From: Candidatus Aminicenantes bacterium
GTDB lineage: Bacteria; Acidobacteriota; Aminicenantia; Aminicenantales; UBA4085
Assembly (NCBI GenBank): GCA_963803915.1
Contig: CAWDOL010000010.1
Coordinates: 15,763-79,762, forward strand
Direction: 5' to 3'
Length of the DNA: 64,000 nt
The notes under the pieces were generated by a model. That model ran no database searches. It had not been told where the DNA came from and saw nothing but the letters and a program-made list of their open reading frames with translations. Shown piece after piece: positions 34,382 to 62,042 of the stretch. The first letter of the stretch is position 1, and the number at the start of each line of letters is the position of its first letter. The translations under genes were made by a program, and so were the position numbers.

Positions 34382-34395
34382 AAGGATAGCCCATC

Positions 34396-35208
34396 ATGAA
34401 GATCGAATTCTTCGGCGTCCGGGGCTCGTTTCCCGCCGCGGGCCACTGCGATTCGGCCTACGGCGCGGCCACTCCCTGCGCCCTGATCACTTCGGCGGGG
34501 GGAGAGTCCGTCATCCTGGACGCGGGCACCGGGATCCGTCCCCTGGGCATACGCATGGCGGCGGCCGCCGGCCCCATCCAAGCCACCATCCTGTTCACCC
34601 ACTTTCACCTCGACCATGTCTTTGGGCTGCCTTTCTTCGACCTGCTGTATCTGGCCAAGGCCGAGATCACCTTCGTCTCCTGGCGCGATCCCGAGGAGAC
34701 GCGCGAGATCCTGTCCCGGCTGATGAGCGAGCCCCTCTTCCCGGTGGCCTTCGACCAAACGCCTGCTCGCAAGACCTTCCTCCGGATCGGTCCGGAGGGG
34801 ATGACGCTGGCCGGCATGACCGTTCGGAGAACCCAGCTCCGCCATCCCCAAGGCTGCATGGCCTACCGCTTCGACGAGGGCAAGGCCGGCGCCGTATTTG
34901 CGACCGATACCGAACACCCCGAGACGGGTATCGACGAACGCCTCGCGGATCTGGCCCGGGGGGCATCGCTCCTCGTTTACGACGCCATGTACACGCCCGA
35001 AGAGTACGCCGAGGGCCGCAAAGGCTGGGGCCACAGCACCTGGGAGCAGGGCGTGCGCCTGGCGCAGGAGGCCAAGGTCGGCCGCCTTCTCCTCTCCCAC
35101 CTCAACCCCGATCACGACGACCGGGCCATCGCCCGGATGAGGAAGGCGGCCAAGGCCGGGTTCCGGAATACCGAATGCGCGGCGGCCGGACGGACGGAGA
35201 CTTTCTAG
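34396..35208 (+). CDS. MBL-fold metallo-hydrolase
   Basis: 270 aa; HFHLDH metal motif, then later D/H ligands (ATDTEH, GWGHST, LSHLNPD). Confidence 0.85.
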   Translation: MKIEFFGVRGSFPAAGHCDSAYGAATPCALITSAGGESVILDAGTGIRPLGIRMAAAAGPIQATILFTHFHLDHVFGLPFFDLLYLAKAEITFVSWRDPEETREILSRLMSEPLFPVAFDQTPARKTFLRIGPEGMTLAGMTVRRTQLRHPQGCMAYRFDEGKAGAVFATDTEHPETGIDERLADLARGASLLVYDAMYTPEEYAEGRKGWGHSTWEQGVRLAQEAKVGRLLLSHLNPDHDDRAIARMRKAAKAGFRNTECAAAGRTETF

Positions 35209-35212
35209 GACC

Positions 35213-37026: not shown

Positions 37027-37261
37027 CCCTTTTTCGGGCTTAAATCAAACCTTCCTATCTTTGGCCGGGTGGGGCGAGAGTGTGGGAACCCGCCCCGACG
37101 CGCCAAAACGCAAACATGGCGCTATCTCCCCTCATGTCGGAAATGAGTTAGAGCTTTTCGAGCTGCCTCTGAATGCCGTTGACAACGGCTCGCAAGTCAA
37201 TGTACTTTTCAACCATAGGCGATTGTATGGGGAGTGAATGATCACTCCAGGGGAGGAAGGG

Positions 37262-40207: not shown

Positions 40208-40220
40208 GATTTTTTACCGG
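39148..40220 (+). repeat. ~1.05-kb near-identical duplication, copy 1 (3' cassette of paralog 1 plus ~12 nt past the stop)
   Basis: Offset by exactly 3348 nt from copy 2. Only scattered substitutions seen by eye; at protein level, I/V, S/N and V/I. Confidence 0.9.
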
Positions 40221-40243
40221 CTTGTTTTTTGGCAGGAGATAAA

Positions 40244-43200
40244 ATGAAAAAATTCTGGACCATTCTATCGGGGACACTGATCATTGTCTTTCTGGCCGGA
40301 GCTGGGGGGCAAGGGTCTGAAGCGCAGGCGCCATCGGCTCTGCCTTCCTCTATCCCCGGCTCGCCGGCTCTTAGAATCCATCATGATTTCGGCAAGATGC
40401 CTCTCTATTTTATCCCCAACCAAGGCCAGATGGACGCCCGGGTGGCCTATTATATTCAGGGAAGAGACAAGACCATCTGCTTCACTTCCGAAGGGTTGAC
40501 ATATGTCCTGACTGAAAGAAGCGCGGAAGAGAAAGCCCCTGAGAAGACGGCTTCGGTGAAGGAGCGCTTATTGATGAAGCCGGCTGACCACGAGCTCCAA
40601 AGCCGGAGAAATCAAGAGCGCTTTGCGGTGAAGCTGGATTTTGTGGGAGCGAATGCGGACGTGAGGCCGTCGGGCGAGGCCAAGACCGATGCCGTCATTT
40701 CCTACTTCAGGGGGAAACCCGAGGAATGGATTACCGGGCTACCGACCTACTCGCGTATCGTCTATAAAAATCTCTGGCCGGGGATCGATGTCGCGTATTA
40801 CGGAACGGTGGACAAGATGAAATATGAATTCACTGTTCATCCCGGCTCGGACCCATCCCTTATTCAGCTGGCCTATCGTGGAGCAAGCGCCGTGTCGGTA
40901 AATGGCGCAGGCCGGTTGGAAGTGAGGACGCCGACGGGGGGATTTGAGGATGATCGCCCGGTGGGGTCTCAAGAAATTGATGGGAAGAGAGTGGACGTTG
41001 GGCTGAGGTATCTCCTCGAGGAGCAATCGGAAAAGGTCATCGGCTCGGCCGGGGAAGAGGCCGTCAACAAGTCGTATGTCTACGGATTCGATGTGGGAGC
41101 GTATGACCGGACAAAGCCGCTCGTCCTCGACCCCGCGGTCCTCGTTTACTGCGGTTACATCGGCGGCTCGAGCCAGGATTATGGCAATGGTATAGCCGTC
41201 GACGGCTCGGGAAACGCCTACATCACGGGCGAAGTCTGGTCCACCGAGGCCACGTTTCCAGCCATCGGCGGCCCTGCACTGACGAATAGCGGAAATGACG
41301 CCTTTGTGGCCAAGGTGAACGCCTCCGGTACGGGGCTCGTTTACTGCGGCTTCATCGGCGGCTCAAGCGTTGAAATAGGCTGGGATATTGCGGTTGACGG
41401 CTCTGGAAACGCCTACGTCACAGGCGAAACCCGGTCTAGCGAAGCCACGTTTCCGGTCATCGGCGGACCCGACTTGACGTACAACGGCAACTATGACGCT
41501 TTTGTGGCCAAAGTGAACGCATCGGGCACAGGGCTCGTTTACTGCGGCTACATCGGAGGCACGGGCGCGGAGCAGGCCTTCGGCATAGCGGTCGACGAAT
41601 CTGAAAACGCCTATATCACGGGAACTACCGATTCCACCCAGGCCACGTTTCCGGTCATCAGCGGACCCGACTTGACATACAACAACAACAGCGCCAATGA
41701 AGCCTTTGTGGCCAAAGTGAACGCCTTCGGCACGGGGCTCGTTTACTGCGGCTATATCGGCGGCACGGGCCAGAATTATGGCAACCGTATAGCGGTTGAC
41801 GGCTCGGGAAACGCTTACGTCACGGGCTTGACCCAAGCCACCGAAGCCGCGTTTCCGGTCATCGGCGGCCCCGACCTGACGCACAACGGCGGAGTTGACG
41901 TCTTTGTCGCCAAAGTGAACGCATCGGGCGCGGGGCTCGTTTACTGCGGCTACATCGGCGGCTCGGGAGATGATTATGGCTACGGTGTAGCGGTGGACGG
42001 CTCGGGTCACGCTTACATCACGGGCTATACCACCTCCACTCAAGCCACATTTCCGGTCATCGGCGGCCCGGACCTGACGCATAACGGCGGATATGACGCT
42101 TTTGTGGCCAAGGTGAACCCGACAGGAACGGGGCTCGTTTACTGCGGCTACATCGGCGGCTCGGATACGGACTGGGGCTACGGCATAGCAGTTGACGGCT
42201 CGGGTAACGCCCATGTCACGGGTGTTACCACCTCCACTCAAGCCACATTTCCGGTCATCGGCGGCCCAGACTTGACCTACAACGGCAATTCTGACGCGTT
42301 TGTAGCCAAAGTGACCACGTCAGGAATGGGGTTTGTTTACTGTGGCTACATTGGCGGATCCAGTCAGGACTCCGGCACGGATATAGCGGTCGACAACGCG
42401 GGAAACGCCTATGTCACGGGAAGCACCGGGTCTACCGAAGCCACATTTCCGGTCACTGGTGGCCCGGACCTGACATACAACGGCTTTGGATCAGACGCCT
42501 TTGTGGCGAAGATCAACGATACTTCTTCAAAGGACAACCTTCTTGGAACTTGGGACGGCCAGGGCGTCTATTTCCGGGATTCCGATACGGGAACTTGGGC
42601 GATGCTTTCATCTCCGGCGGACTTGATCGCTTGCGGAGATTTGTACGGCGATGGCATCGACGACCTCATAGGGATCTGGTCGGGGCAGGCTGGCGTCTGG
42701 GTCAAGAACTCGGCCAACGGCAGCTGGGCCTATCTCGGCAGCTCTCCTCGCCATATCGCGGCCGGGGACATGAACGGCGACGGGCGGGCGGACCTGCTGG
42801 GAACCTGGGACGGCCAGGGAGTATTTTACAGGGATTCGATGGCCGGGACATGGAACCAGATGGCCACCCCGGCCACTCTTATCACGGCGGGCGACTTGGA
42901 CGGCGACAACAAATCCGATCTGATCGGGATCTGGCCGAGCCAGGCCGGGGTGTGGGCGAAATTCTCTCAGTCGGACACTTGGAGCTATATCGGGTCCTCG
43001 CTGCGGGACATGGCCACGGGGGACATGAACGGCGACGGCCGGACGGATCTCGTCGGGACCTGGGATGGGCAGGGGGTCTTCTACCGGGACTCGATGACGG
43101 GGAATTGGGTCATGATGGCCACCCCGGCGGACCAGGTCGCGGCGGGGGATTTGGACGGGGACGGGACGGACGACCTGATCGGGATCTGGGCCGGGCAGGC

Positions 43201-43555
43201 CGGCGTATGGGTGAAGTATTCGGCGACGGGGAATTGGGCCTATATCGGAAGCTCGGCCCGGGACATAGCAACCGGCAGGATGAGCGGCGGGCTCTGGGGA
43301 TCCGGGTTGAGCAAGCCAATGCCTCTGGCAAGCCCGATGGGAGGCTTTGCCGACGGACCTTCGCGGTATGACAGATTTGAGAATCTTTCCTCCGAAGGGC
43401 CGGGAGGGAACCGGTTCATTTTAAAACGGGGAGAGAATCTGGTTCCTAAGATAGGGAAATCCGAAAAGGCCCGCGTTCCCGGGCCGGGAGAGTCCGGATT
43501 CCGGTATACGCTGCAGAAGAACCTCTGGCCGCAGGCGGTAGTGATAAAGAAATAG
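40244..43555 (+). CDS. secreted SBBP beta-propeller-repeat / FG-GAP repeat protein, paralog 2
   Basis: AGGAG RBS and ATG 40244 (MKKFWTILSGTLIIVFLAGAGG, signal peptide). An N-terminal ~300-aa domain (PLYFIPNQGQMDARVAYY...). About 11 SBBP units of a different subtype (GLVYCGYIGGS..D.G.GIAVDGSGNAY.TG.T.ST.ATFPVIGGPDLT.NG..DAFVAKVN). The C-terminal 345 aa match paralog 1. Confidence 0.88.
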   Translation: MKKFWTILSGTLIIVFLAGAGGQGSEAQAPSALPSSIPGSPALRIHHDFGKMPLYFIPNQGQMDARVAYYIQGRDKTICFTSEGLTYVLTERSAEEKAPEKTASVKERLLMKPADHELQSRRNQERFAVKLDFVGANADVRPSGEAKTDAVISYFRGKPEEWITGLPTYSRIVYKNLWPGIDVAYYGTVDKMKYEFTVHPGSDPSLIQLAYRGASAVSVNGAGRLEVRTPTGGFEDDRPVGSQEIDGKRVDVGLRYLLEEQSEKVIGSAGEEAVNKSYVYGFDVGAYDRTKPLVLDPAVLVYCGYIGGSSQDYGNGIAVDGSGNAYITGEVWSTEATFPAIGGPALTNSGNDAFVAKVNASGTGLVYCGFIGGSSVEIGWDIAVDGSGNAYVTGETRSSEATFPVIGGPDLTYNGNYDAFVAKVNASGTGLVYCGYIGGTGAEQAFGIAVDESENAYITGTTDSTQATFPVISGPDLTYNNNSANEAFVAKVNAFGTGLVYCGYIGGTGQNYGNRIAVDGSGNAYVTGLTQATEAAFPVIGGPDLTHNGGVDVFVAKVNASGAGLVYCGYIGGSGDDYGYGVAVDGSGHAYITGYTTSTQATFPVIGGPDLTHNGGYDAFVAKVNPTGTGLVYCGYIGGSDTDWGYGIAVDGSGNAHVTGVTTSTQATFPVIGGPDLTYNGNSDAFVAKVTTSGMGFVYCGYIGGSSQDSGTDIAVDNAGNAYVTGSTGSTEATFPVTGGPDLTYNGFGSDAFVAKINDTSSKDNLLGTWDGQGVYFRDSDTGTWAMLSSPADLIACGDLYGDGIDDLIGIWSGQAGVWVKNSANGSWAYLGSSPRHIAAGDMNGDGRADLLGTWDGQGVFYRDSMAGTWNQMATPATLITAGDLDGDNKSDLIGIWPSQAGVWAKFSQSDTWSYIGSSLRDMATGDMNGDGRTDLVGTWDGQGVFYRDSMTGNWVMMATPADQVAAGDLDGDGTDDLIGIWAGQAGVWVKYSATGNWAYIGSSARDIATGRMSGGLWGSGLSKPMPLASPMGGFADGPSRYDRFENLSSEGPGGNRFILKRGENLVPKIGKSEKARVPGPGESGFRYTLQKNLWPQAVVIKK
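41141..42515 (+). repeat. in-frame tandem coding repeats (~200 nt unit, ~7 copies visible at DNA level) encoding SBBP blades
   Basis: Recurrent GGGCTCGTTTACTGCGGCTACATCGGCGG and ACGTTTCCGGTCATCGGCGG(A/C)CC(C/G)GAC(C/T)TGAC strings. Confidence 0.8.
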
Positions 43556-48801: not shown

Positions 48802-48891
48802 CTTGCGCTCCTTAATCCCTCGCGTCAGAGCCTGCTCACGGGGTTGCGTCCCGACACGATCGGCGTCTGGGATCTGGAAAACCACTTACGC
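48802..48891 (+). pseudogene. relic fragment of a sulfatase gene (active-site region only)
   Basis: Translation [30 protein letters not shown] matches the sulfatase signature (C/S)-x-P-S-R-x-x-x-L-T-G-x-x-P followed by ...G.WD. The formylglycine Cys/Ser position is Leu. There is no upstream or downstream continuation. Confidence 0.4.
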
Positions 48892-48938
48892 AGACGCCGG
48901 GCCGACATAGTAGCGGCGGTCCTCAATCGGTCGGATCT

Positions 48939-49865
48939 TCACGGCTCCTCCTCGGCCTTCAGCCCGAAGGCGACCGGGCTGGTCGTCTTGCCCTTGAGCT
49001 TGACCTCGCCCAGGGCGATGAAGCCGAACTTCGTCCCCAGAACCTTGTGAATGTCCGACCCGACCACGATGGGCATGCCCTTGACCTTGCAGGCCGATTC
49101 CAGCCGGAAGGCCAGGGTCACCGCGTCGCCCATGATGGTCATGTCGCGCTGCGACTGCGTCCCGACGTTGCCGCTCGAGACCAGGCCCTGGTTGATGCCG
49201 ACGCCGACGGCAAAGGGGAAGTCGGGGTCGTCCGGGGATCGACGTCTGGCGGGCCAGGGCGTGGATCTTCAGCGCCGCCCGCACGGCCTTCTCCGCCGCC
49301 GCGTCCGGCTCCTTGGCCTCGACCGGCCAGTAGGCCATGACTGCGTCGCCGATATACTTGTCCACCACTCCGCCCAGGCCGGCGATGACTTCCTGGGTCT
49401 GCCGGAACCACGAGCCCAGAAAGCGGGCCAGCTGGTCGGGGTTGAGGAGCTCGCCGATGCGGGTGAAGTTGCGGATGTCGCAGACCAGGATGACCATGGT
49501 GCTCATGTGGACGGCGACCCGGGTCTTCTCCATGGCCGTCTGGGACAGCTTCTTGACCTCTTCGGGCGAGGGGCCGGGCAGCTCGAAGCGGAAGGACGCT
49601 TCGCCGACCTGGATGACGTCGCTGTTGCGGAGCAGCGTGGGGCCGATGATCAGCTTGCCGTTGAGCAGGGTGCCGTTGGCGCTGCCCATATCAATCAGAA
49701 AGTACTCCTGCTCTCCCTGGCGCCGGATCAGGGCATGCTGGCGCGACACGGCGAAGTCGTCCTTGAGACAGATCTGGTTGGACGAGGCGCGGCCGATACC
49801 GGTGGTGTTGCCGATCTCGTACAGGATGGGAGCCCGTCCGGGCGCTTCCAGGTGCAGATAGGGGG

Positions 49866-49869
<4 letters not shown>
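48939..49869 (-). CDS. FHA-domain class III adenylate/guanylate cyclase; one +1 frame change near 49235
   Basis: ATG 49869 in an ATGA overlap with the upstream kinase stop. FHA domain ([23 protein letters not shown]...[11 protein letters not shown]). Cyclase domain ([21 protein letters not shown]). After the shift: [25 protein letters not shown]...[14 protein letters not shown] (track ORF 48939..49142). Confidence 0.82.
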
Positions 49870-52695
<2,826 letters not shown>

Positions 52696-52863
52696 GGTTC
52701 TCACCAACCCGAGTGTTGTCCCATTCTAGGGGACGGGGGGCGGGAAGTCAATTTGCGTCGGGCGGGGCGGGCGGAAACAGGGGGAACAGCGGGCCGGCCG
52801 GGCGAAGAGATGGGGGGGCTCAGCTCTTGGCGTGGCCCTGGCAGGCCCTGTCCCCGGTGACGT

Positions 52864-52992
52864 TCATGCAGCCGGTCGAACGGTCTTGGTCGGGCCCAGG
52901 CCATATTGGGACTTGCACGTCCCTAAGACCATCTCGTTGGCCTGAACGCGGACCAATACGACCAGTTCGGGTGTCGTCCAAGTTTTTTTCAT
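52864..52992 (-). CDS. unlisted 42-codon ORF resembling a RiPP precursor leader (alternative end at 52820 if one base is missing)
   Basis: AGGAGA ~7 nt upstream of ATG 52992. Translation MKKTWTTPELVVLVRVQANEMVLGTCKSQYGLGPTKTVRPAA*. The alternative continuation in the frame of track ORF 52820..53047 is ...GLGPDQDRSTGCMNVTGDRACQGHAKS*. It is too short for the ORF track. Confidence 0.4.
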   Translation of the reverse strand: MKKTWTTPELVVLVRVQANEMVLGTCKSQYGLGPTKTVRPAA

Positions 52993-53021
52993 CGTCCTCT
53001 CCTGGGCTCTTCCCTTCTAAC

Positions 53022-53962
53022 TTAACGGCTATGGCGGGGAATGTCAATGCCGGGATGGAGACCGGCCAGGGCGTCCAGCGTCGCGAGCACGCCGCCGCTC
53101 AAGTCGAAAAAGAGCTTGTAAGCGGGGACGGCGACGGCCAAGCGCTCCACGACGGCCAGGGTTTGGCCCCACCACTCCGGCGTCGCCAGGGGCTTGATGA
53201 CCAGGTCGAGAAGCCGGCGCACGACGTCGCGGCGGTCCGGGATCGGCTCGGCCCCGTTGCGGCCGGACTTGTGGAGGAAGAAGAGGGAGTCCAGGGGCGC
53301 CGAGCCGGGCGAGACGTCCGGGACGTCGCCGTGGCTCCAGGTGCCGTGGATGCGGAAGCCGCTCCCGGTCGGGCCGCAGAGCGACGCGGTCGTCACAAAG
53401 GATTTCGGCGCCGGCGGCGAGCTGCCGCATCATGGTCGACTTGCCGGCGGTCGAGTGACCGGCGAAGAGCCAGCCCTCGGCCGCCCCGGATGACTCCGCC
53501 GGCGTGAAGCAGGCACCCGCCGCGCGCGGCGAGAAGCGGCGCCAGCAGGACCTGGTCCGTGGGCAGGAGGGTCAGGGAATCGAAGCCGTCCCCGGGCACG
53601 GCCACGGGTCCGGGCGTGAAGATGTCCGCGCTGCGGTAGTCCTTGGAGAAGACGGCCGTTTGGACCGCGCCGTCCCCCCGGCCGCCGATCCGGTAGACCC
53701 AGACGTCGCCGCGGTCGAAGACGGCGTAGGGGGGCTTGGCGTAGGCGAGCCGTGCGCTCCCGAGCGGATCGGGGAATTCGCGGGCGTGATGACGGATGAG
53801 GACGGCGTCGGGTCCCGAGGCGTCCGTTTCGAAAGCCTCGAACTTGCGGTGCAGGCGGAGCGGCGGGGCGTCCGGCTCCGTCTCCACGGCCAGAAGGATC
53901 CCGGCCAGGAGGAAGAAGCGGCGGCCGGAAGTGGGGGAGCGCATGGCGGGTTCCGTTCCCAT
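53022..53962 (-). CDS. HPr-kinase-like P-loop protein (HprK-related kinase family); two +1 frame changes near 53470 and 53395
   Basis: Three track ORFs (53393..53962, 53044..53433, 53022..53396) join into ...LLHAGGVIRGGRG-WLFAGHSTAGKSTMMRQLAAGAEILCDDRVAL-CGPTGSGFRIHGTWSHGDV... The layout LHA.gv..(G)..lF.G.SgaGKST ... DD ... GTpW.G is that of the HprK C-terminal-domain relatives. Confidence 0.6.
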
Positions 53963-54087
53963 CTTAGGGAATCGGCCATCGATGTCAAGGCGGCGTCATG
54001 GCGTGCGTCATGGCGGCGTCCTTTCCTTTTGCCGCCGGATATGGTAAAAAGTGCGCTGGTCCGACGGGGCCGCGAGAGGAATCGACC

Positions 54088-54744
54088 ATGAAACGCGAGA
54101 TCAAAAAGAAGCTCAAGGAAGACGAGTTCGTATCCGGATTCGGCCATGTTTGGGACTTCCTCCAGGCCTGGCGGCACGAGGCCCTGCTCGGGTTGGCCGT
54201 CCTGGCCGGCTTGGTCGTCCTCGGCGGCGGGCTGTTATTCCTCAAGGGCGTCCAGACGCGCTCTTCCAGCGCGGACCTCGGCCGCATCCTGGAGATCCGG
54301 GCGGGCTTGGCCGCAACACCCGCCGACGTGGTCAAGCTCGAGGAGCTGTCCCGCAAGGGCAAGTTCGCCCGCGTCGCCGCGACCCAGCTGGCCTCCTATT
54401 GGGTTGAGCAGGGCGACCTGGACAAGGCGGCCGCCGCCCTGGCCGGGATCAAGACGTCGCCCAAGGACTTTTTCTACTGGCAGGCCAGGGACCTTGCCGC
54501 CCAGATCGCCCTCCTGAAGGGCGACGTCGCCGGCGCCTTGGCTATTCTGGACACGATCGAAGCGGCCAAGCCCAAGGACTTCAACCTGGACGCCGTCCTT
54601 TTCCACAAGGCCGAGGCCTTGGAGAAGAAGGGCGACAAAGCCGCCGCCCTGGCGCTTTTCAAGAAGATCCAGACCGACTACGCCCAATCCTACTTCGGCT
54701 ACGACGCCGGCCTGCGGGTCCGCAAGCTGGAAAGCGCGAAGTGA
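54088..54744 (+). CDS. single-pass membrane TPR-like protein (YfgM-like)
   Basis: Met 54088 after GAGAGGA (MKREIKKKLKEDEFVSGFGHVWDFL). One TM, then Ala/Leu-rich TPR-like helices. Confidence 0.6.
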   Translation: MKREIKKKLKEDEFVSGFGHVWDFLQAWRHEALLGLAVLAGLVVLGGGLLFLKGVQTRSSSADLGRILEIRAGLAATPADVVKLEELSRKGKFARVAATQLASYWVEQGDLDKAAAALAGIKTSPKDFFYWQARDLAAQIALLKGDVAGALAILDTIEAAKPKDFNLDAVLFHKAEALEKKGDKAAALALFKKIQTDYAQSYFGYDAGLRVRKLESAK

Positions 54745-54784
54745 CGGGCAGACCCGAATCCGCTATAATGGAAGCTCAATTTGA

Positions 54785-55045
<261 letters not shown>

Positions 55046-55074
55046 GTCCCCTTCCCGCGCCGCCGCGACCGATT

Positions 55075-55109
55075 CCAGGAGCGAGGCATCCTCGCTCCTG
55101 GTTTTTTTT
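55075..55109 (+). terminator. rho-independent terminator after the ferredoxin gene
   Basis: Perfect 12-bp stem CCAGGAGCGAGG-CAT-CCTCGCTCCTGG followed by T8 (55102-55109). Confidence 0.85.
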
Positions 55110-55117
55110 CCTCAGCC

Positions 55118-56080
55118 ATGAATGAGCCCGGAGTCACCGTCCCTCCGGCGGCCCGGCCGCGGAGGAATTTCTTCGCCAAGGACCGGCCTTGGTTGAACGC
55201 CCTCCTCCTTGGACTGACGGCCATCTCGGCTTTCCTGGTCGGGCTTGACTGGAGCGTCGGCTTTCTGGCCGCGGGCAACCCGTCTGCCGCCGGCGGGGGA
55301 TTTGCGGCCGCGCTGAGGAACCCGCGGGCCGTCGGGCTGAGCCTTCTTTATGCCCTTGTCCTGCTCCTCATCCTGTCGGCCCACGAGATGGGCCACTACC
55401 TGGCCTGCCGGCGCTACGGCATCAGTGCCACGCTGCCGTTCTTCGTTCCAGCGCCGACGCTGATCGGCACCCTGGGCGCCTTCATCAAGATCCGGGACCC
55501 CATCACGCGCCGGCGACGGCTCTTCGACATCGGGGCGGCCGGCCCCCTGGCGGGGTTTGTGTTGGCGGTGCCCGCCCTGGCCATCGGCTTAGCCGGCTCA
55601 AAGATCATCCCCTCGCTGCCGAGGGAGGGCACCCTTCTTTTCGGCGAGCCGCTCATCGTCAAACTGATTGGTTTGGCTGCGCTGCACGGCAGCGGGCCGG
55701 GATTCGACGTCATCCTCCACCCGGTGGCCTTCGCGGGCTGGGTCGGGATCCTCGTTACTGCCTTGAACCTGTTCCCCATGGGCCAGCTCGACGGCGGCCA
55801 CATAGCTTACGCCGTCCTCGGCCGGAAATCCCGGCGCTTGGCCCAGGCCTTCCTGGTTGCCTTCGCGATTATGGGCATTTTCTTCTGGATCGGCTGGTTC
55901 GTCTGGGCGCTTCTTATCCTCGTTCTGGGCCTCAAACACCCCAGCGTCTGGGACGAAACGGCACCCCTGGGCCGGGGCCGGAACTGGTTGACGGTCGGCC
56001 TGATCCTCATCTTTGTTCTTTGTTTCATTCCTGATCCGGTCAAGGGCCTGGACCTGCTGGCGCTCATCCGCGGACTGTGA
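55118..56080 (+). CDS. site-2 protease family (M50) membrane metalloprotease
   Basis: 320 aa; HEMGHYLACRRYG motif, NLFPMGQLDGGH block, multiple TM helices. Confidence 0.88.
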   Translation: MNEPGVTVPPAARPRRNFFAKDRPWLNALLLGLTAISAFLVGLDWSVGFLAAGNPSAAGGGFAAALRNPRAVGLSLLYALVLLLILSAHEMGHYLACRRYGISATLPFFVPAPTLIGTLGAFIKIRDPITRRRRLFDIGAAGPLAGFVLAVPALAIGLAGSKIIPSLPREGTLLFGEPLIVKLIGLAALHGSGPGFDVILHPVAFAGWVGILVTALNLFPMGQLDGGHIAYAVLGRKSRRLAQAFLVAFAIMGIFFWIGWFVWALLILVLGLKHPSVWDETAPLGRGRNWLTVGLILIFVLCFIPDPVKGLDLLALIRGL

Positions 56081-56286
56081 CAAATGAAGCCTGGACTTTT
56101 TCACAGAAAGTGTGGAAAACTTGTGAATATGTGCGCCCCCAAGGCCGCCGAATGCCACCAAATCTCAGCACTTACGACAGATTGCACACGAATTCGGCAC
56201 ATCAATTATGTGTATTGTTTTCAATTACATAGAATCTACCTGATAATCCACCAATTGCGTCGCATGGCGCTTCGCCGGGAGAGGGC

Positions 56287-57132
56287 ATGATGCATGATTC
56301 GTTCCAGGCCGCGGTTTCCACCTTTGAAGAGCTGAAGAAAAAGTTCGAGGCCGGCGGTCTTTCGCGCCAGCAGTTCATCGACGAGATGAAAAGGCTCCGC
56401 CTCAAGGACGCCCAGGGACGCTATTGGATGATCGGGGCGCAGACCGGGCGCTGGTACTACTTCGACGGCCGGGACTGGATCGCTTCGGATCCGCCTCCGG
56501 TCAAGGACAAGGGGACCGTCTGCGTCTTCTGCGGCTTCGAAAACAAGGCGGGCGCCGATTCCTGCGGCCGTTGCGGCGGTACACTGGACGGCAAGCCTGA
56601 CGCGGGGGCCGAAAAATGCCCCGACTGCGGCGAGACGCTGAGCAAGCCGCTCATGACCTGCCCCCGTTGCGAGCCCAAGGGCGCGGACTTGAAGGGCGTC
56701 GAGATCGTGCGGCTGGAGTCGGGCTCCCTCGGTCGGGACGGCATCTATGTTGTGCGAGCGGTCAAGCCTTTCTCCCTGGCCCTGGTGCTCGGGGTTTTGG
56801 GCGCTCTGTCGGGCGCCGTTTATGGTGCCTTCGCCGGCGCCACCGGCTCACTGGCGGCGTCGATCGCTTCCCTTCTTCCGCCCGCCGTGCTCGATCTGCA
56901 GGGCAAGCTTCTTGGCGCCGTGATCGACGGTTCCGGCGGGGCCGCGGCCGGCTTCCTCCTGGTGGGACTTTCCGGCTGGCTTCTGGCGCACCTCCTCAAC
57001 TTCGTCCTGAAGATCACCGGCGGGCTCAAGCTGCGGTTTACGGTGCCTTATCGGGAGGGTGCCGAACCGGCGGCCGGGGAAGCGGAAGAGAGCGACAGGG
57101 ACGGCCTCGGGTTCAACCTGCTGAAGGATTGA
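56287..57132 (+). CDS. GYF_2-like / double zinc-ribbon membrane protein, function unknown
   Basis: 281 aa; GRYWMIGAQTGRWYYFDGRDWI, then CVFCGFEN...CGRCGG and CPDCGE...CPRC ribbons, then Gly/Ala-rich TM segments. Confidence 0.65.
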   Translation: MMHDSFQAAVSTFEELKKKFEAGGLSRQQFIDEMKRLRLKDAQGRYWMIGAQTGRWYYFDGRDWIASDPPPVKDKGTVCVFCGFENKAGADSCGRCGGTLDGKPDAGAEKCPDCGETLSKPLMTCPRCEPKGADLKGVEIVRLESGSLGRDGIYVVRAVKPFSLALVLGVLGALSGAVYGAFAGATGSLAASIASLLPPAVLDLQGKLLGAVIDGSGGAAAGFLLVGLSGWLLAHLLNFVLKITGGLKLRFTVPYREGAEPAAGEAEESDRDGLGFNLLKD

Positions 57133-59403
57133 GGGAAGCCAGGGCGAAGGCGGCCTGGCCGACCGAGATCGATTCGTCGTTCGGGGAGAAGCGGACCGGA
57201 CGCAGAACCCGGAATCCGGCCTTCTCGAGGCCCGACGTCGCCCGATCCAGAAGAATCCTGTTCAGGAAAACCCCGCCGCAGAGGACCACCGTTTCGAGTC
57301 CTCTCTCCCTGTCGGGCGATGTTAGCCGCCGCGACGATGGCCCTGGCCAGGGCGGCGTGGAACGAGGCGGCGATATCGGGCCGGGGGACGCCCTTCTCCC
57401 GATCGAAGGCTACGGCCCGGATGAGCGGCCCGAAGCCGATCCGGTCTAAGCCCGGGTCCGGGGGGGATGACGAAGGGGTAGCGCCGGACGGCCCGACCCA
57501 CCGCGGCTTCCGCCTCCAGCCGCATGGCCGCTTCGCCCTCGTACTCGTTCACCGCGGGAGCAAGTCCGAGCAGCGCCGAGACGGCGTCGAAAAGCCGGCC
57601 GCAGCTCGAAGCGATCGTCGCCGGGGAGCCTCGCGCGATCATGGCGCGGACGGCTCGGATCGTATCGGCATCCACACCCGCGGGGATACGGAGCCACTTC
57701 GCCTCGGGCAAACCGGCTTGGGCCAGGTAGGCCAAGGCCATCCTCCATGGCTGCCTGGCCGCCAGGTCGCCTCCCGGCAAAGGGATGGGCTCGAACGAGA
57801 ACAATCGGTCGAAGCCCGTGGTGCCGACGGCCATGATCTCGGCGCCCCAGGCTTCCCCGTCCGCCCCGTACCCGTAGCCGTCGAAGGCGATCCCCAGGGC
57901 GGTTTCGCTGGGAGAGAGGCCGTGCTCGAGCATGGCGGCCAGGACATGGGCGTGGTGGTGCTGGACACGGAGGTGGGGGATGCCGGCCTTGCGGGCGAAC
58001 GCCGCGGCCCAGCGCGTCGAGTGGAAGCCCGGATGAAGGTCCGAGACGACACAGGCGGGCCGGACCGAGAAGAGCGGAGGAGGTGGCTGACGGTCTCCTC
58101 GAAATAGCGGCGGTTCCGGTACTCGTCCAGGTCGCCCAGGAACTGGCTGGTGACCAGGCGCCCGTCGCGGGCCACCGAGATCGTGTCTTTGAGCTCGGCG
58201 CCCACGGCAAGAACGTGTCCGCGGCCTTCCCATTCCGGCGGCAGACGCTGCGGCTCGGGGACGAAGCCGCGGGCGCGGCGAACGAAAAGAGGCACGCCGC
58301 CCGCGAGCTTGAGGACGCTGTCGTCGGCCCGCATGTGGATCGGCCGGTTGTGGCCGAGCACGTAATCGCACAGCGAGGCCAGTGCCGGCCTCCTCGTCCT
58401 TCATGATCGGAGAGTCCTTGGGATTGGTGCTGGTGGCCACGATGAGGTCGAGCCGCTCCAGGAGCAGGACGTGGAGGGGCGTGTAGGGCAGCATCACTCC
58501 GATCTCGCGCAAGCCCGGGGCCAGGCCGGGGAGCTCGTCGCGCCGGCGGAGGAGCACAATGGGCCGCCTCGGGGACTGCAGCCAGGCGGCCTCCTCCGGC
58601 GCCACGACGGCCATGCGGCGGACCACGGCCATGTCGCGGGCCATGAGGGCCAGGGGCTTGCGGGAGCGCTCCTTGATGCGGCGCAGCCGGCGGACCGCGG
58701 CCGCGTTGCGCGGGTCGCAAACCAGGTGAAATCCGCCCAGCCCCTTGACGGCCAGGATGTGACCGCGCCGGATGAGCTCGGCGGCCGCTTCGATTCCGCC
58801 CGGCAGCTCGGCCCGCGATCCGCTCCGGCGCAGCCTCACCGCGGGGCCGCAGACGGGGCAGGCGATAGGCTGGGCGTGATGGCGGCGGTCGAAGGGGTTT
58901 TCGTACTCGGCCGCGCAGTCCGGAGCACATGCGGAAGCCGGACATGGTCGTGGCGGGCCGATCGTAGGGCAGGGATCGGACGATCGTGTAGCGCGGCCCG
59001 CAGTCGGTGCAATTGGTGAAAGGGTAGCGGTAGCGACGGTTCCCGGGCTCGGCGATGTCGCGCAGGCAGGCCGGGCAGACCGAGATGTCGGGCGAGATGA
59101 AGACGAGCCCCCGGCCCGCCCGCGAGGCTTTCACCTCGAATCCGGCCAGGCCTTGGAAGGGGACGGGCTCGGCGGACGACCGACTCGATGACGGCCAGCG
59201 GCGGATGCTCCTCGCGCACGGCCCGGACGAATCGGTCCAGGTCAGCGTCGCGCGCCGACTCGACCCGGATCTCGACGCCGGAGGCCGTGTTGGCCACCCA
59301 GCCCGATAGGCTCCAATCGGATCGCCAGCCGGTGGATGAACGGCCGGAAGCCGACGCCCTGGACGACACCGGAGACCAGGACGCGGCGGGCGTAGCCTCT
59401 CAT
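57113..59403 (-). pseudogene. hypF: carbamoyltransferase HypF, at least seven frame changes
   Basis: I traced it across frames. Acylphosphatase domain (MRGYARRVLVSGVVQGVGFRPFIHRLA) from ATG 59403. Zn fingers (CPACLRDI...[41 protein letters not shown]). YrdC domain (ILAVKGLGGFHLVCD). Kae1-like domain (GIAFDGYGYGADGEAWG...). Tail ...VVLCGGVFLNRILLDRATSGLEKAGFRVLRPVRFSPNDESISVGQAAFALASLNPSAG* with stop at 57113-57115. Length mod 3 = 2. Confidence 0.88.
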
Positions 59404-59404
59404 G

Positions 59405-59947
59405 TCAGCGGGGCCGCCAGCTGTACCGGCAGCCGCAATAGGCTTGGCGGTAGAGGCCGTGCCGGCGGGAGAGCTCGACGCTGCGAACGAAGCCGCCCTG
59501 CTTCTTCAGGTCGGCCTCGAGAAAGCGCACGCCGTGCTTGCGGCCGCACAGCCGGCCGATGCGGTTGACGGCGGCGGCGTTCTTGTGGGGGCTGACGGTC
59601 AGTACCGTGGCAAAGGCGGGCAGGCCCAGGTCCGCCGCCAGGCGGGCCGAGGCGTCCAGACGGAGGGCGAAGCAGACGTCGCAGCGGCGGCCTTTCTCCG
59701 GTTCGGCCGCGAGGCCGGCCGTCCGCCGCTCCCAGTCCTTGGGCTCGTAGCGGCCTTCCATCAGCTTGAAGTCCAGCAGCCCGGCCACCTTCTGGGTCTC
59801 CATCCAGCGCACGTCGTATTCCTCGGTCGGCCAGATGTTGGGGTTGTGGAAGAAGCCGGTGACGTCGTGATCCCGCTGAAAGACCTCTACCCCGTGGATG
59901 GCGTCGGGAGCGCAACAGATGTGGACGAGGAGGGGCAATTGGGACAC
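59405..59947 (-). CDS. queH: epoxyqueuosine reductase QueH (DUF208)
   Basis: 180 aa; LLVHICCAPD, C-terminal CDVC and YCGC Cys motifs. Its stop is 1 nt before the hypF ATG. Confidence 0.88.
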   Translation of the reverse strand: MSQLPLLVHICCAPDAIHGVEVFQRDHDVTGFFHNPNIWPTEEYDVRWMETQKVAGLLDFKLMEGRYEPKDWERRTAGLAAEPEKGRRCDVCFALRLDASARLAADLGLPAFATVLTVSPHKNAAAVNRIGRLCGRKHGVRFLEADLKKQGGFVRSVELSRRHGLYRQAYCGCRYSWRPR

Positions 59948-59990
59948 GGCGCTATTGTAGACCGGAGGGCTGTGGGAACAAGACGAGCGG

Positions 59991-60708
59991 TCAGAACAGG
60001 GTTTCGATCTCGTTCAGATAATGGAGGATGGATCGGTTGACGGCGTCGATCTGGGTGTACAGGTCCTGCAGGTCGGGCTGCGGCGGCCGTTCCTCGTCGG
60101 CCAGGCGAACCCAGGGCCTCGAGCCGGACCTTCTTCTCGAACTCCAGGTGGGCCACGGCGGCCTGGTCGGTCCCCACCTTCCGCTCCAGGACCCGGATTT
60201 CGCGCCGTATCTGGCGCTCTTTCTCCTTGATCTGGTGCAGCTCGCGCGGGTCGGCCGGCTGGCCGGCTTCTTTCAGCTTGGCCAGGCTCCGGGTCCGGCC
60301 GCGCGACTCCTCGAGCTGTCGGCGCAGCTCCTGGACCCTGGCCAAGGCCTCCTTCAGGCCGGACTGCCGCCGCAGGCGCTGCTCCTCCCATGCGTCGATC
60401 TCGTTCAATAGGGTGGCCGTCTTGGGGATGGGCAGGCGGGCCGACCAGCACAGCCGGCCGAGCTCGTGCAGCAGGCTGGAACGCTTCCGCTTGGCCTTGT
60501 TCAGGCGCATCTGGAGGCGCGTCCGCTGCATCCGCCGCTTGGCCCCGGACAGGAAGAAGTCCAGGCGGTGACGCAGATCCTTGTCGCGCAGGAAGATAAA
60601 GGCCACGAGCAGCAGGATGACGCAGAGAAGCAGCCAGAGCGTCCAGTAGGGGAGTCCCTGGGAGGGGATTTCCTCTACGGCTTGCAGGCTCCAGGCGGCG
60701 GTGTTCAT
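59991..60708 (-). CDS. membrane-anchored coiled-coil protein, function unknown; one +1 frame change near 60110
   Basis: One TM (YWTLWLLLCVILLLVAFIFL), then heptad-rich Arg/Glu/Leu sequence. After the shift the tail reads RLADEERPPQPDLQDLYTQIDAVNRSILHYLNEIETLF* (stop 59991). This removes the otherwise 60-nt overlap with queH. Confidence 0.55.
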
Positions 60709-60761
60709 GGCGGTTTTGACTAGGGATACTTATTCCACTTAGGCGGACTTGTCAAACGCGG

Positions 60762-62042
60762 TCAGCGGATTCGAGGCTTGGGGCGGTCCACGATCCGGCT
60801 GTCTCCCCGGATGTCGGGTCGGTCCGCAACCGGGGCGCGAGCCCGGACGGTCCGGCGGGCGAGCTCCAGGATGGCGGGGAGGTTCTCCCTGAAAATGCCG
60901 TCGATGTCCTCTTCCGCATTGATGAATCCCCCGTGCACGAGGTCCACGGGCGGAAGCTCAACGGTGTAGGCGGGAACACCGAGCTCGGCGTAGGCCCAGT
61001 CCGCGGCGTCGCCGTTGGAGAGGTAGAGATCCTCCCCGGACTGGCCGACGGCATAGGCCCTGCCCCCGACGGCGGCCATGATCTCCGCCATGTCCCGTCC
61101 CCAGGCGTCGAGGACCGGCTGAAGAGGCGCCGGTGCCGCGGTAAAGGCCCAGGGATAAAGGATAAGCTGCCCAAAGCTGTGGTAAGAGACGACGGCATCG
61201 AAGCCGCGGCCGAGGACCAGATTCCGCAGGGCGGCCGTCTCCGGTTCCGAGAAGGCCGACCGGCCGCGGAAGACGCCGCTCGCGGGGTTGGGGCTCGAGC
61301 CGACATCGTCGAGGCCCCAGGCTTGGCTGTAGTTGCGGTTCAGGTCGACGCCGAAGCTCCCGTCCCCGTTGTCGCGGCGGTTCTTTCTCCAATAGCGGTA
61401 GGTCCCGATGGAGTACTCCAGGCCGTCCGGATTGAGGAGAGGCACGATCCAGAGCTCGCTCCCGTCGACGATCTCTCGGACGGCAGGATCGGAGTCGTAG
61501 GTCTCCAGTATGCGTCCGGCGATAAGCAGGGGCACCTCCACCGAGATCCACTCCCGGGCGTGATGGCAGCCGACGAGGAGAAGGCCGGCCTCCTCCTCCG
61601 CCAGTCCGGGGTTGTCGCTGATCTTCAAGGCCAGGATGCGGCGGTTTTCCAGGCTGAGGCCGATCGTGGTCAGGCGGGCCAGCTCGGGGAAGCGGGCGGC
61701 GAGATCAGCCAGCGCCGTCTCCAGCTCGCGGTAGGAATGGTAGGCGCCGTTGGGGCCCCCCATGGCATCGGAGGCATCCTGAAGGGGGGCGGGGAAGAGC
61801 CCCATTGGTTCGGCGGCAGCAATCCCGGCCGCGGCCAGGCGCGACCAGGCGCCCCTATCGGCATCGATATAAAGGGAGCCTTCCCACACCGCGAGGACGT
61901 CCAGGTCGAGCTTGCGCAGCGTCTCCTGAAGTCCCGGCCGGATCGGAATCCCGAGGACCCGGCTTTGGCCGCCGGGATCGGCGGCGGGGACCAGAGAGGA
62001 GGCGGCGAAGAGGGCCAGAGCGAGGAGAGGCTTGCATCGCAT
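60762..62042 (-). CDS. secreted M14-family zinc carboxypeptidase
   Basis: 426 aa; signal peptide, then GCHHAREWIS (HxxE Zn ligands), NPDGLEYS, WRKNRR, and DLNRNY blocks. Confidence 0.88.
   Translation of the reverse strand: MRCKPLLALALFAASSLVPAADPGGQSRVLGIPIRPGLQETLRKLDLDVLAVWEGSLYIDADRGAWSRLAAAGIAAAEPMGLFPAPLQDASDAMGGPNGAYHSYRELETALADLAARFPELARLTTIGLSLENRRILALKISDNPGLAEEEAGLLLVGCHHAREWISVEVPLLIAGRILETYDSDPAVREIVDGSELWIVPLLNPDGLEYSIGTYRYWRKNRRDNGDGSFGVDLNRNYSQAWGLDDVGSSPNPASGVFRGRSAFSEPETAALRNLVLGRGFDAVVSYHSFGQLILYPWAFTAAPAPLQPVLDAWGRDMAEIMAAVGGRAYAVGQSGEDLYLSNGDAADWAYAELGVPAYTVELPPVDLVHGGFINAEEDIDGIFRENLPAILELARRTVRARAPVADRPDIRGDSRIVDRPKPRIR

What the first reader, a model, noticed from the sequence alone, without database searches (positions are those of the whole stretch)
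52820..53962. Candidate RiPP-like pair: HprK-like P-loop kinase followed by an unlisted precursor-like mini-ORF
An ORF too short for the track runs 52992->52864 on the minus strand, with AGGAGA ~7 nt upstream. It encodes MKKTWTTPELVVLVRVQANEMVLGTCKSQYGLGPTKTVRPAA. The K-x-W-x-x-P-E-L-x-V-L ... E-x-V-L-x-x-C-K opening is the style of leader seen in PqqA-like or radical-SAM-type precursors and in some lasso-type precursors (e.g. MKKQYSKPSLEVLDV... of paeninodin). This comparison is memory-based, not searched.

If one base is missing near 52885-52895, the peptide instead continues ...GLGPDQDRSTGCMNVTGDRACQGHAKS*, with three Cys and a C-terminal Ser. A deletion is possible here because the locus lies inside the error hot zone.

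Thirty nt upstream on the same strand is an HPr-kinase-like protein (LHAGGV...WLFAGHSTAGKST...GTWSHGD). HprK-like kinases are known to phosphorylate RiPP precursors on a C-terminal Ser in paeninodin-type clusters. No cyclase, protease, rSAM or PqqD-like RRE is present, so if the pair is real it is a minimal or split system. The Ser/Thr kinase and FHA-cyclase follow on the same strand.
Basis: partly seen in the sequence, partly recalled or inferred. Interest (0 to 1): 0.7.

Follow-up and report, generated by a model that had tools for sequence, protein, structure and literature searches.

The report
Orphan kinase-plus-precursor peptide gene pair
A real, conserved 56-residue peptide gene sits directly behind an HPr-kinase-like enzyme gene; the pair is a stripped-down relative of a very widespread but experimentally unstudied family of peptide-modification gene clusters, which here has none of its usual radical-SAM partner enzymes nearby.

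Summary
The mini-ORF is a genuine gene. Orthologous loci carry a called 56-aa gene at the same place, and its dN/dS is 0.07-0.18. It belongs to a precursor family of about 3,364 sequence clusters.

Compared with a 92.8%-identical relative, the window carries a 2-bp insertion at 52878-52877. The true product is MKKTWTTPELVVLVRVQANEMVLGTCKSQYGLGPTKTVTGCMNVTGDRACQGHAKS.

The kinase-like gene (53944-53022) has two 1-bp insertions. Once corrected it is an intact 306-aa member of Pfam ScmC (PF27840), with an HPrK/PEPCK fold and intact P-loop and DD motifs.

In 80 of 81 other lineages examined, this enzyme sits beside, or is fused to, radical-SAM/SPASM maturases. These usually come with a PqqD protein, an S24-like peptidase and the same precursor family. 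Nearly all of those precursors end in Cys-x5-Ser/Thr.

The window's clade keeps only the kinase and the peptide. They form a roughly 1.2-kb module with its own promoter-like site, inserted into a housekeeping neighbourhood.

The most likely function is phosphorylation of the precursor's C-terminal Ser. Whether maturases act in trans is open. This is a new variant of a bioinformatically known kind (a relative of the SynChlorMet cassette).

The parts
53961..53988 (-). Sigma-70-like promoter match (TTGACA, 16-nt spacer, TAAGAT) directly upstream of the kinase-like gene
   Evidence: 10 of 12 matches. Two such sites were found in 1.8 kb, against 0.2 expected. The site is conserved in L089 as TTGACT-17-TAAGAT. 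This is a consensus match only; function is inferred.
53022..53944 (-). ScmC-family HPr-kinase-like P-loop gene, 306 aa after removing two spurious C bases (about 53467 and about 53362). Motifs: PTDQ, LHAGGV, GHSTAGKST (Walker A), LCDDR, GTWSHGD, WW
   Evidence: Searches cover sequence and homology. Pfam PF27840 (ScmC) is recorded on all orthologs. NCBIfam gives ScmC at 1e-9 and HprK_rel_B at 5e-8, both below cutoff. The AF2 model of the ortholog P0001 has pLDDT 91.6, and Foldseek matches it to HPrK/P and PEPCK.
52998..53003 (-). Shine-Dalgarno-like AGGAGA, 5 nt before the peptide ATG and 18 nt after the kinase stop
   Evidence: Read directly from the sequence. Conserved in L089.
52912..52992 (-). 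Leader part of the precursor gene (residues 1-27, MKKTWTTPELVVLVRVQANEMVLGTCK). It holds the family-wide motifs W-x-x-P-x-L-x-V-L-x-R ... E-x-V-L-x-x-C-K
   Evidence: W5, P8, L13, E20, C26 and K27 are invariant across 45 diverse members.
52820..52911 (-). Core part of the precursor gene plus stop (SQYGLGPTKTV-TGCMNVTGDRACQGHAKS*). It contains a spurious 2-bp insertion at 52878-52877. It ends in the family hallmark Cys-x5-Ser-COOH
   Evidence: Searches give the corrected frame. Searches show that 121 of 145 non-redundant Ser/Thr-terminal precursors have exactly C-x5-[S/T] at the C-terminus, and that essentially all complete members end in S or T.

Best explanation
The locus is a self-contained two-gene module with its own promoter. 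It encodes a RiPP-type precursor peptide (56 aa) and an HPr-kinase/PEPCK-fold P-loop enzyme of the ScmC family.

It is a reduced derivative of a widespread, uncharacterised cassette. In that cassette the same enzyme, often fused to a radical-SAM/SPASM maturase, works with a second rSAM/SPASM enzyme, a PqqD-type leader-binding protein, an S24-like peptidase and often an NTP_transf_5 nucleotidyltransferase and an ABC exporter. All act on precursors of this same family.

The most likely chemistry of the retained enzyme is ATP-dependent phosphorylation of the hydroxyl group of the invariant C-terminal Ser (Ser56) of the adjacent peptide. This is what HPr-kinase homologs do to lasso-peptide precursors.

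Shown here:
- the gene pair is real, conserved and under purifying selection;
- it is homologous to both cassette components;
- the kinase motifs and fold are intact;
- the precursors carry an invariant C-x5-S/T terminus;
- the other cassette genes are absent from 64 kb around the pair;
- the pair is an indel within a conserved neighbourhood.

Inferred:
- the peptide is the enzyme's substrate;
- Ser56 is the modified residue;
- in this clade the product is either a phosphorylated, otherwise unprocessed cytoplasmic peptide, or an intermediate finished by enzymes encoded elsewhere.
For: Gene reality and pairing
- Orthologous loci L001-L004, L087 and L089 all have ScmC followed after 29-70 nt by a called peptide gene of 56-58 aa.
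- Peptide dN/dS is 0.07-0.18. ScmC dN/dS is 0.30-0.40.

Family link
- The precursor profile finds 3,364 clusters at 50% identity.
- At least 405 species genomes encode ScmC relatives.
- Of the 81 non-minimal loci, 80 have rSAM, 66 have PqqD and 59 have an S24-like peptidase. In 55 of them ScmC is fused in frame to the C-terminus of an rSAM/SPASM protein.
- The sister lineage L086 has the full cassette with the same TGCMNV...C core type. So does L091.

Kinase character
- The Walker A motif GHSxAGKST, LCDDR and an upstream His are invariant.
- A profile of the family matches HPrK/P chains over exactly this stretch.
- The AF2 model has pLDDT 91.6, and Foldseek matches it to HPrK/P and PEPCK.

Substrate site
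- Essentially all complete precursors end in Ser or Thr, and 83% have a fixed C-x5 spacing before it.
- NTP_transf_5 co-occurs in 33 loci.
- In lasso clusters, HPr-kinase homologs phosphorylate the C-terminal Ser of the linear precursor, and a nucleotidyltransferase then decorates that phosphate (PMC8498205).

Module autonomy
- L092 has the identical neighbourhood without the pair.
- Separate promoter-like sites lie before ScmC and before the downstream kinase gene.
Against: - No biochemical evidence exists for any ScmC-family protein. Nothing on the cassette was found in the searchable literature.
- ScmC is only distantly related to HPrK/P (13% identity; no Pfam Hpr_kinase hit). Its relation to the characterised lasso kinases was not tested directly.
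- The frequent fusion to an rSAM enzyme could mean that ScmC has a role in the rSAM reaction itself, such as substrate handling, rather than in tailoring.
- All three Cys residues and the core sequence are strictly conserved in the minimal clade. This is easier to explain if Cys-crosslinking maturases still act on the peptide, i.e. if the system is split.
- No RRE is encoded with the pair, and the N-terminal domain of ScmC is all-beta, not RRE-like. How the leader would be recognised is therefore unexplained.
Confidence: 0.55

Rival explanations
1. Split system. The pair is only the visible part of a complete pathway. rSAM/SPASM maturases, a PqqD RRE and a leader peptidase are encoded elsewhere in the genome. 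They crosslink the three Cys residues and release a mature peptide, and ScmC acts alongside them as it does in the full cassettes.
For: - The core (TGCMNVTGDRAC...S) and all three Cys are as conserved in the minimal clade as in the sister full cassettes L086 and L091.
- The leader motifs that are invariant family-wide are retained.
- Other Aminicenantes genomes often carry full cassettes, for example L017, L018, L052, L062, L064 and L080.
Against: - No homolog of any other cassette protein occurs in 64 kb of the window, or within 8-10 kb on either side in five independent orthologous loci.
- Among the 80 best ScmC loci, no second locus comes from the two species-representative assemblies of this clade (L006 and L007). 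This is weak evidence, because only 80 of 405 loci were kept and MAGs are incomplete.
- RiPP maturases are normally clustered with their precursor.
Confidence: 0.3
2. ScmC is not a Ser kinase. It uses ATP for something else, for example as a chaperone or peptide-delivery domain for the rSAM enzyme, or to activate a carboxylate or another residue. In the minimal clade it modifies or binds the peptide in a way unrelated to the C-terminal Ser.
For: - ScmC is fused in frame to the C-terminus of rSAM/SPASM proteins in 55 of 81 loci.
- The whole-length fold match is to PEPCK rather than only to the HPrK catalytic domain.
- NCBIfam and Pfam give no functional name.
Against: - The conserved Walker A, DD and His motifs sit in the HPrK arrangement.
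- The invariant C-terminal Ser/Thr, together with the co-occurring NTP_transf_5, mirrors the known lasso kinase and nucleotidyltransferase tailoring pair.
Confidence: 0.12
3. Decaying remnant. The pair is a non-functional leftover of a lost cassette, and the frameshifts in the window are real.
For: - The window copy carries three frame-breaking indels.
- All partner genes are missing.
Against: - Intact copies occur in at least four lineages separated by dS of about 0.7 to more than 2, with peptide dN/dS of about 0.1.
- The indels are not shared with the 92.8%-identical L089, which has its own different indel.
- Neighbouring housekeeping genes are equally frameshifted.
- The catalytic motifs are intact.
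Confidence: 0.03

Closest known systems
SynChlorMet (SCM) cassette of NCBIfam/TIGRFAMs: ScmC (TIGR04249), ScmD PqqD-like (TIGR04248), ScmE and ScmF rSAM/SPASM (TIGR04250, TIGR04251)
   Same: The full-cassette relatives (L005, L086) have the same architecture: an HprK-like ScmC, two rSAM/SPASM proteins and one PqqD-family protein. Pfam places the window's orthologs in PF27840 'ScmC'.
   Different: - Every NCBIfam SCM model scores far below its equivalog cutoff (ScmC 33-38 vs 125 bits; ScmE 83 vs 400; ScmF 78 vs 400; ScmD 26 vs 100). This is therefore a sister family.
- The window's version lacks ScmD, ScmE and ScmF altogether.
- No Pfam or NCBIfam model matched the precursor family defined here.
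HPr-kinase homologs of lasso-peptide clusters (paeninodin PadeK type, and the proteobacterial polyphosphorylating kinases), with the pseudomycoidin nucleotidyltransferase
   Same: - An HPr-kinase-like enzyme is encoded next to a ribosomal precursor that ends in Ser.
- The leader has a (W/Y)-x-x-P-x-L style opening.
- A nucleotidyltransferase is a frequent companion in the full cassettes.
   Different: - No lasso cyclase or B1/B2 proteins are present.
- The lasso precursor models match only residues 1-12, at E about 0.1.
- The partner enzymes are rSAM/SPASM.
- The kinase has no Pfam Hpr_kinase hit.
- No activity has been shown.
HPr kinase/phosphorylase (HPrK/P) and PEP carboxykinase fold
   Same: The P-loop catalytic domain fold and the order of motifs are shared: His, then G-x-S-x-x-GKS, then (A/C)DD.
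   Different: Identity is 10-18%. The N-terminal domain is different. The genomic context is peptide modification, not HPr or carbon catabolite control.
PqqD-dependent rSAM/SPASM peptide systems (PQQ, mycofactocin, ranthipeptide and sactipeptide maturases such as PapB)
   Same: The rSAM proteins of the full cassettes hit PqqE, MftC, PapB and sactipeptide maturase models at E 1e-15 to 1e-23. The RRE is PqqD-like. The precursors are Cys-rich.
   Different: None of these systems includes an HprK-like component or a fixed C-x5-S/T C-terminus. None of these enzymes is present in the window.

Membership tests
ScmC family (Pfam PF27840) | Match to the Pfam ScmC model | tested here: met
   All 119 full-length homologs, including P0001 (83% identity, 100% coverage), carry precomputed PF27840. 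The local Pfam copy lacks this model, so membership of the window protein rests on that close homology.
SynChlorMet cassette (NCBIfam equivalogs) | ScmC score at or above the TIGR04249 cutoff of 125 bits | tested here: not met
   38 bits, E = 1.1e-9. The ScmC proteins of the full cassettes L005 and L086 also score only 33 and 19 bits.
SynChlorMet cassette (NCBIfam equivalogs) | Two rSAM/SPASM maturases (ScmE, ScmF) and a PqqD-like ScmD in the same cassette | tested here: not met
   tblastn of the L005 cassette proteins against the whole window finds only ScmC and the peptide. HMM survey: 0 of 11 minimal-clade loci have these genes, against 80 of 81 other loci.
HPr kinase/phosphorylase | Hpr_kinase_N/C Pfam domains and close sequence similarity | tested here: not met
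   No Hpr_kinase hit at E <= 1. The profile matches PDB HPrK chains only at E = 0.02-0.3. Foldseek identity is 10-18%.
HPr kinase/phosphorylase | P-loop kinase fold with Walker A and a catalytic Asp-Asp | tested here: met
   GHSTAGKST and LCDDR are invariant. Foldseek matches the HPrK/P catalytic domain at E = 8e-5 with TM-score normalised to target (TMt) of 0.46-0.55.
Paeninodin-type phosphorylated lasso peptide cluster | Lasso cyclase (Asn-synthetase-like C protein) and B1/B2 leader-processing proteins | tested here: not met
   Pfam scans of the window's ORFs show only signalling and housekeeping genes. The related full cassettes use rSAM, PqqD and S24 proteins instead.
Paeninodin-type phosphorylated lasso peptide cluster | Precursor matches a lasso precursor model | tested here: not met
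   NF033528 scores 12.8 bits (cutoff 33) and NF033524 scores 11.7 bits (cutoff 27). Only residues 1-12 match.
Paeninodin-type phosphorylated lasso peptide cluster | Precursor ends in Ser, the residue that is phosphorylated | tested here: met
   The corrected peptide ends ...GHAKS. The feature holds family-wide. Phosphorylation itself cannot be tested with these tools.
RiPP precursor (generic definition) | Short gene with a conserved leader and a variable core, clustered with modifying enzymes | tested here: met
   The leader is invariant at W5, P8, L13, E20, C26 and K27, while cores vary greatly across the family. The gene lies next to ScmC, rSAM or PqqD genes in 81 loci.
PqqA / PQQ system | Match to a PqqA model and presence of pqqB-E genes | tested here: not met
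   No PqqA family appears among the NCBIfam or Pfam hits at E <= 1. There are no pqq genes in the window. The resemblance of the W-x-K-P-x-L leader to PqqA is from memory only.

The most novel reading that the evidence does not exclude
The ScmC kinase and the fixed Cys-x5-Ser/Thr-COOH tail may define a previously undescribed RiPP modification. Phosphorylation of the terminal Ser/Thr would not be an end in itself. It would activate that residue, for example by phosphate elimination to a dehydro-amino acid that the Cys six residues upstream then attacks. The result would be a C-terminal thioether macrocycle.

On this reading the window's clade would be a natural 'kinase-only' minimal version. 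It would make a conserved modified 56-residue peptide with an intracellular role, more like a cofactor or signal than an antibiotic.
Probability: 0.12. Interest if true: 0.75.

Novelty: new variant of a known kind. Interest (0 to 1): 0.6.

Why it matters
The finding identifies a candidate substrate family for a large cassette type that is known only from database models. That type combines ScmC-like kinases with two rSAM/SPASM enzymes and a PqqD protein. It occurs in at least 405 species across Omnitrophota, Aminicenantes/Acidobacteriota, Desulfobacterota, Planctomycetota, Chloroflexota and methanogenic archaea. I found no product, chemistry or precursor model for it.

The precursor family comprises about 3,364 clusters at 50% identity. 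It has a sharply defined signature: the leader MKKxWxKPxLVVLxR...E.VLxxCK and the terminus C-x5-S/T. This makes the chemistry directly testable.

The window's clade supplies the simplest possible test case, one enzyme plus one peptide. It can be used to ask what ScmC proteins do. It is also a natural experiment in cassette reduction, in which the peptide has stayed under stronger constraint than its enzyme.

Tried and rejected
- Lasso-peptide reading: rejected. Precursor model hits are sub-threshold and cover only residues 1-12. No cyclase or B proteins are present.
- Functional link to the downstream Ser/Thr kinase and FHA-guanylate cyclase, or to the divergent TPR/Fer4/M50/DZR genes: rejected. 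None of these co-occurs with ScmC outside this clade. L092 has the same neighbourhood without the pair, and L093 and L094 have the STK-FHA-cyclase pair alone.
- An FHA-binding phosphopeptide idea therefore has no support.
- An RRE-like N-terminal domain in ScmC: not supported. The model's N-terminal domain is all-beta and PEPCK-like.
- Single-sequence phmmer of the catalytic stretch against PDB gave only noise. Only the family profile and the fold search detect HPrK.
- Literature searches for SynChlorMet/ScmC, for 'HPr kinase' with 'radical SAM' and related terms, and for SPASM with HprK found nothing on this cassette. The peptide-arginase paper is unrelated to it.
- A look-up of the window's own public record (P0010) failed.
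- Rfam found only a tRNA in the window.
Full report
**1. What is in the sequence**

On the minus strand, an ORF runs from 52992 to 52864. It encodes MKKTWTTPELVVLVRVQANEMVLGTCKSQYGLGPTKTVRPAA, and AGGAGA lies 5 nt before its ATG.

Upstream, an HprK-like reading frame is spread over all three frames: 53962/53944-53393, then about 53478-53374, then 53429-53022.

A close relative, L089, is 92.8% identical over 13 kb with 65 gap columns. It was aligned base by base with the window. Relative to L089, the window has one extra C at about 53467 and one at about 53362 in the enzyme gene. It also has two extra bases (52878-52877) in the peptide gene. L089 has a different 1-bp insertion of its own.

The neighbouring Ser/Thr-kinase and HypF genes in the window are likewise split between frames. 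The lesions are therefore best read as assembly errors.

Removing them gives two products:
- a 306-aa enzyme that is 83% identical over its full length to intact database proteins;
- a 56-aa peptide, MKKTWTTPELVVLVRVQANEMVLGTCKSQYGLGPTKTVTGCMNVTGDRACQGHAKS.

Only the position and kind of the lesion needed adjusting.

**2. The small ORF is a real gene**

- In orthologous loci from at least four further lineages (L001-3, L004/L006, L087/88, L089), a gene of 56-58 aa has been called 29-70 nt after the enzyme gene. Its sequence is nearly the same.
- Pairwise dN/dS is 0.07-0.18 while dS reaches 1-2. The enzyme gene is less constrained, at 0.30-0.40.
- A profile of four such peptides found 51 proteins.
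- A profile of 45 diverse members found 3,364 clusters at 50% identity at E <= 1e-3, and 697 at E <= 1e-10, in a library of 1.84 billion representatives.

The family has these features:
- a conserved leader, MKKxWxKPxLVVLxRGKPEExVLxxCK, with W5, P8, L13, E20, C26 and K27 invariant;
- a highly variable core with two or more further Cys;
- a C-terminal Ser or Thr in essentially every complete member;
- exactly five residues between the last Cys and that terminal residue in 121 of 145 non-redundant sequences.

Neither Pfam nor NCBIfam has a model that matches the family.

**3. The enzyme**

- Every full-length homolog carries Pfam PF27840, named ScmC.
- NCBIfam's best matches are the SynChlorMet protein ScmC (38 bits, cutoff 125) and HprK-related kinase B, both well below cutoff.
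- Invariant motifs are PTDQ, L-H-x-x-G, G-H-S-x-A-G-K-S-T, L-C-D-D-R, G-T-W-S-H-G and W-W. All are present in the corrected window protein.
- An AlphaFold2 model of the ortholog P0001 is confident (pLDDT 91.6, pTM 0.89).
- Foldseek matches the model to PEP carboxykinase over its whole length, and to the catalytic domain of HPrK/P (E about 1e-4, TM-score normalised to target about 0.5).
- A family profile matches HPrK/P chains weakly over the His/P-loop/DD stretch.

The enzyme is therefore an HPrK/PEPCK-fold P-loop phosphotransferase with an intact active-site signature. It is not a bona fide HPrK/P.

**4. The wider system**

A scan of one genome per species found at least 405 genomes with a relative. 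They are spread over many bacterial phyla and methanogenic archaea, and 80 loci were fetched. I searched all six-frame ORFs of these loci with HMMs built from a complete cassette, L005. Among the 81 loci outside the window's clade:

| Component found | Loci (of 81) |
|---|---|
| rSAM/SPASM genes | 80 |
| PqqD-family gene | 66 |
| S24/S26-like peptidase | 59 |
| NTP_transf_5 nucleotidyltransferase | 33 |
| ABC exporter | 31 |

- Nearly all of these loci have one or more precursor genes of the family. One Dehalococcoidia locus has at least 11.
- In 55 loci the ScmC domain is fused in frame to the C-terminus of an rSAM/SPASM protein. L013:8885-10900 is an example.
- The NCBIfam SCM models (ScmC, ScmD, ScmE, ScmF) recognise these proteins only far below their cutoffs. 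The cassette is therefore a sister of the SynChlorMet cassette, not the equivalog.
- I found no paper on either cassette in the searchable library.

**5. The window's clade is a reduced form**

- In the window and its ten orthologous loci, none of the partner genes is present within 8-10 kb.
- tblastn of the cassette proteins against all 64 kb finds only ScmC and the peptide.
- Pfam scans show that the rest of the window is housekeeping and signalling genes.
- In a neighbour-joining tree the clade is monophyletic. Its sister is L086, a complete cassette (ScmC, rSAM, PqqD, S24 peptidase, rSAM, precursor, peptide arginase). The L086 precursor has the same core type...TGCMNVTGGGACRG...S. L091 is similar.
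- The flanking genes are never found with ScmC elsewhere. On one side these are TPR-like, Fer4, M50 peptidase, DZR and HypF. On the other they are the Ser/Thr kinase-TPR gene and the FHA-guanylate cyclase gene.
- Locus L092 has exactly this neighbourhood with only a 158-bp spacer where the pair would be. That spacer contains the same TTGACT...TAGAAT promoter-like site that precedes the kinase gene in the window.

The pair is therefore a roughly 1.2-kb indel module with its own promoter-like site (53988-53961).

**6. Mechanism**

[quoted passage not shown] A nucleotidyltransferase can then glycosylate that phosphate (PMC8498205).

The ScmC family shows the same three features:
- an HPrK-like enzyme;
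- precursors that invariably end in Ser/Thr;
- a frequent NTP_transf_5 companion.

I therefore think the most likely activity is ATP-dependent phosphorylation of Ser56 of the adjacent peptide. This is an inference; nothing here demonstrates it.

Three observations are not explained by simple tailoring:
- the fixed C-x5-S/T spacing;
- the frequent fusion to rSAM enzymes;
- the strict conservation of all three Cys in a clade that has no crosslinking enzyme nearby.

These keep two alternatives alive: maturases acting in trans (about 0.3), and a non-kinase or activating role for ScmC (about 0.12). A decaying remnant is unlikely given the selection data.

**7. Verdict**

The object is a new variant, a kinase-plus-precursor-only module, of a cassette type known only bioinformatically. 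The work also exposes what appears to be an undescribed and very large precursor family with a sharp C-terminal signature.

Noticed in passing
L013:8885-10900 and 54 other loci (L008-L084): In 55 of 81 loci the ScmC domain is fused in frame to the C-terminus of a radical-SAM/SPASM protein, giving a single ORF of about 650-720 aa. This implies a tight mechanistic coupling between the two activities.
   Followed up: partly
All precursor-family ORFs (loci L005-L091; proteins P0121-P0171): The family has a fixed C-terminal signature: the last Cys is followed by exactly five variable residues and then a terminal Ser/Thr, in 121 of 145 non-redundant sequences. An invariant Cys-Lys ends the leader.
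   Followed up: partly
L009:10900-18700 (Dehalococcoidia MAG): At least 11 precursor genes of the family lie in one cassette, a multi-substrate arrangement.
   Followed up: no
L086:7570-8499: A peptide arginase (FlmR/OhkR-type, 151 bits, below the 350-bit cutoff) lies directly after the precursor in the full cassette that is sister to the window's clade. This suggests Arg-to-ornithine tailoring in some members.
   Followed up: no
window 48900-62000: There are systematic 1-2-bp indels relative to the 92.8%-identical L089 (65 gap columns in 13 kb). The Ser/Thr kinase (51637-52707 / 52038-52496 / 49866-52037) and HypF (57322-58839 / 57446-59134) are split across frames. This is typical of an unpolished long-read assembly.
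   Followed up: partly
window 37238-43555: Two large tandem paralogous genes (989 and 1,108 aa) carry DUF7948, SBBP beta-propeller and FG-GAP repeats. They lie in a stretch of clearly lower G+C (0.53-0.62 in the 38-45 kb profile, against about 0.65-0.70 elsewhere) with strong positive GC skew. This may be acquired DNA.
   Followed up: no
window 32492-36871 and 48886-52707: The window contains a cluster of cyclic-nucleotide signalling genes: a CHASE2-guanylate cyclase, a cNMP-binding MscS-type channel, and the Ser/Thr kinase-TPR plus FHA-guanylate cyclase operon. That operon is conserved across Aminicenantes in other contexts (L092-L094).
   Followed up: partly
window 53944-53962: The mechanical ORF start (ATG at 53962) overlaps the -10 hexamer of the promoter-like site. 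Homologs start at the second ATG (53944, MRSPTSGRRFF). This leaves a 5' untranslated region of only about 10 nt with no obvious ribosome-binding site.
   Followed up: no
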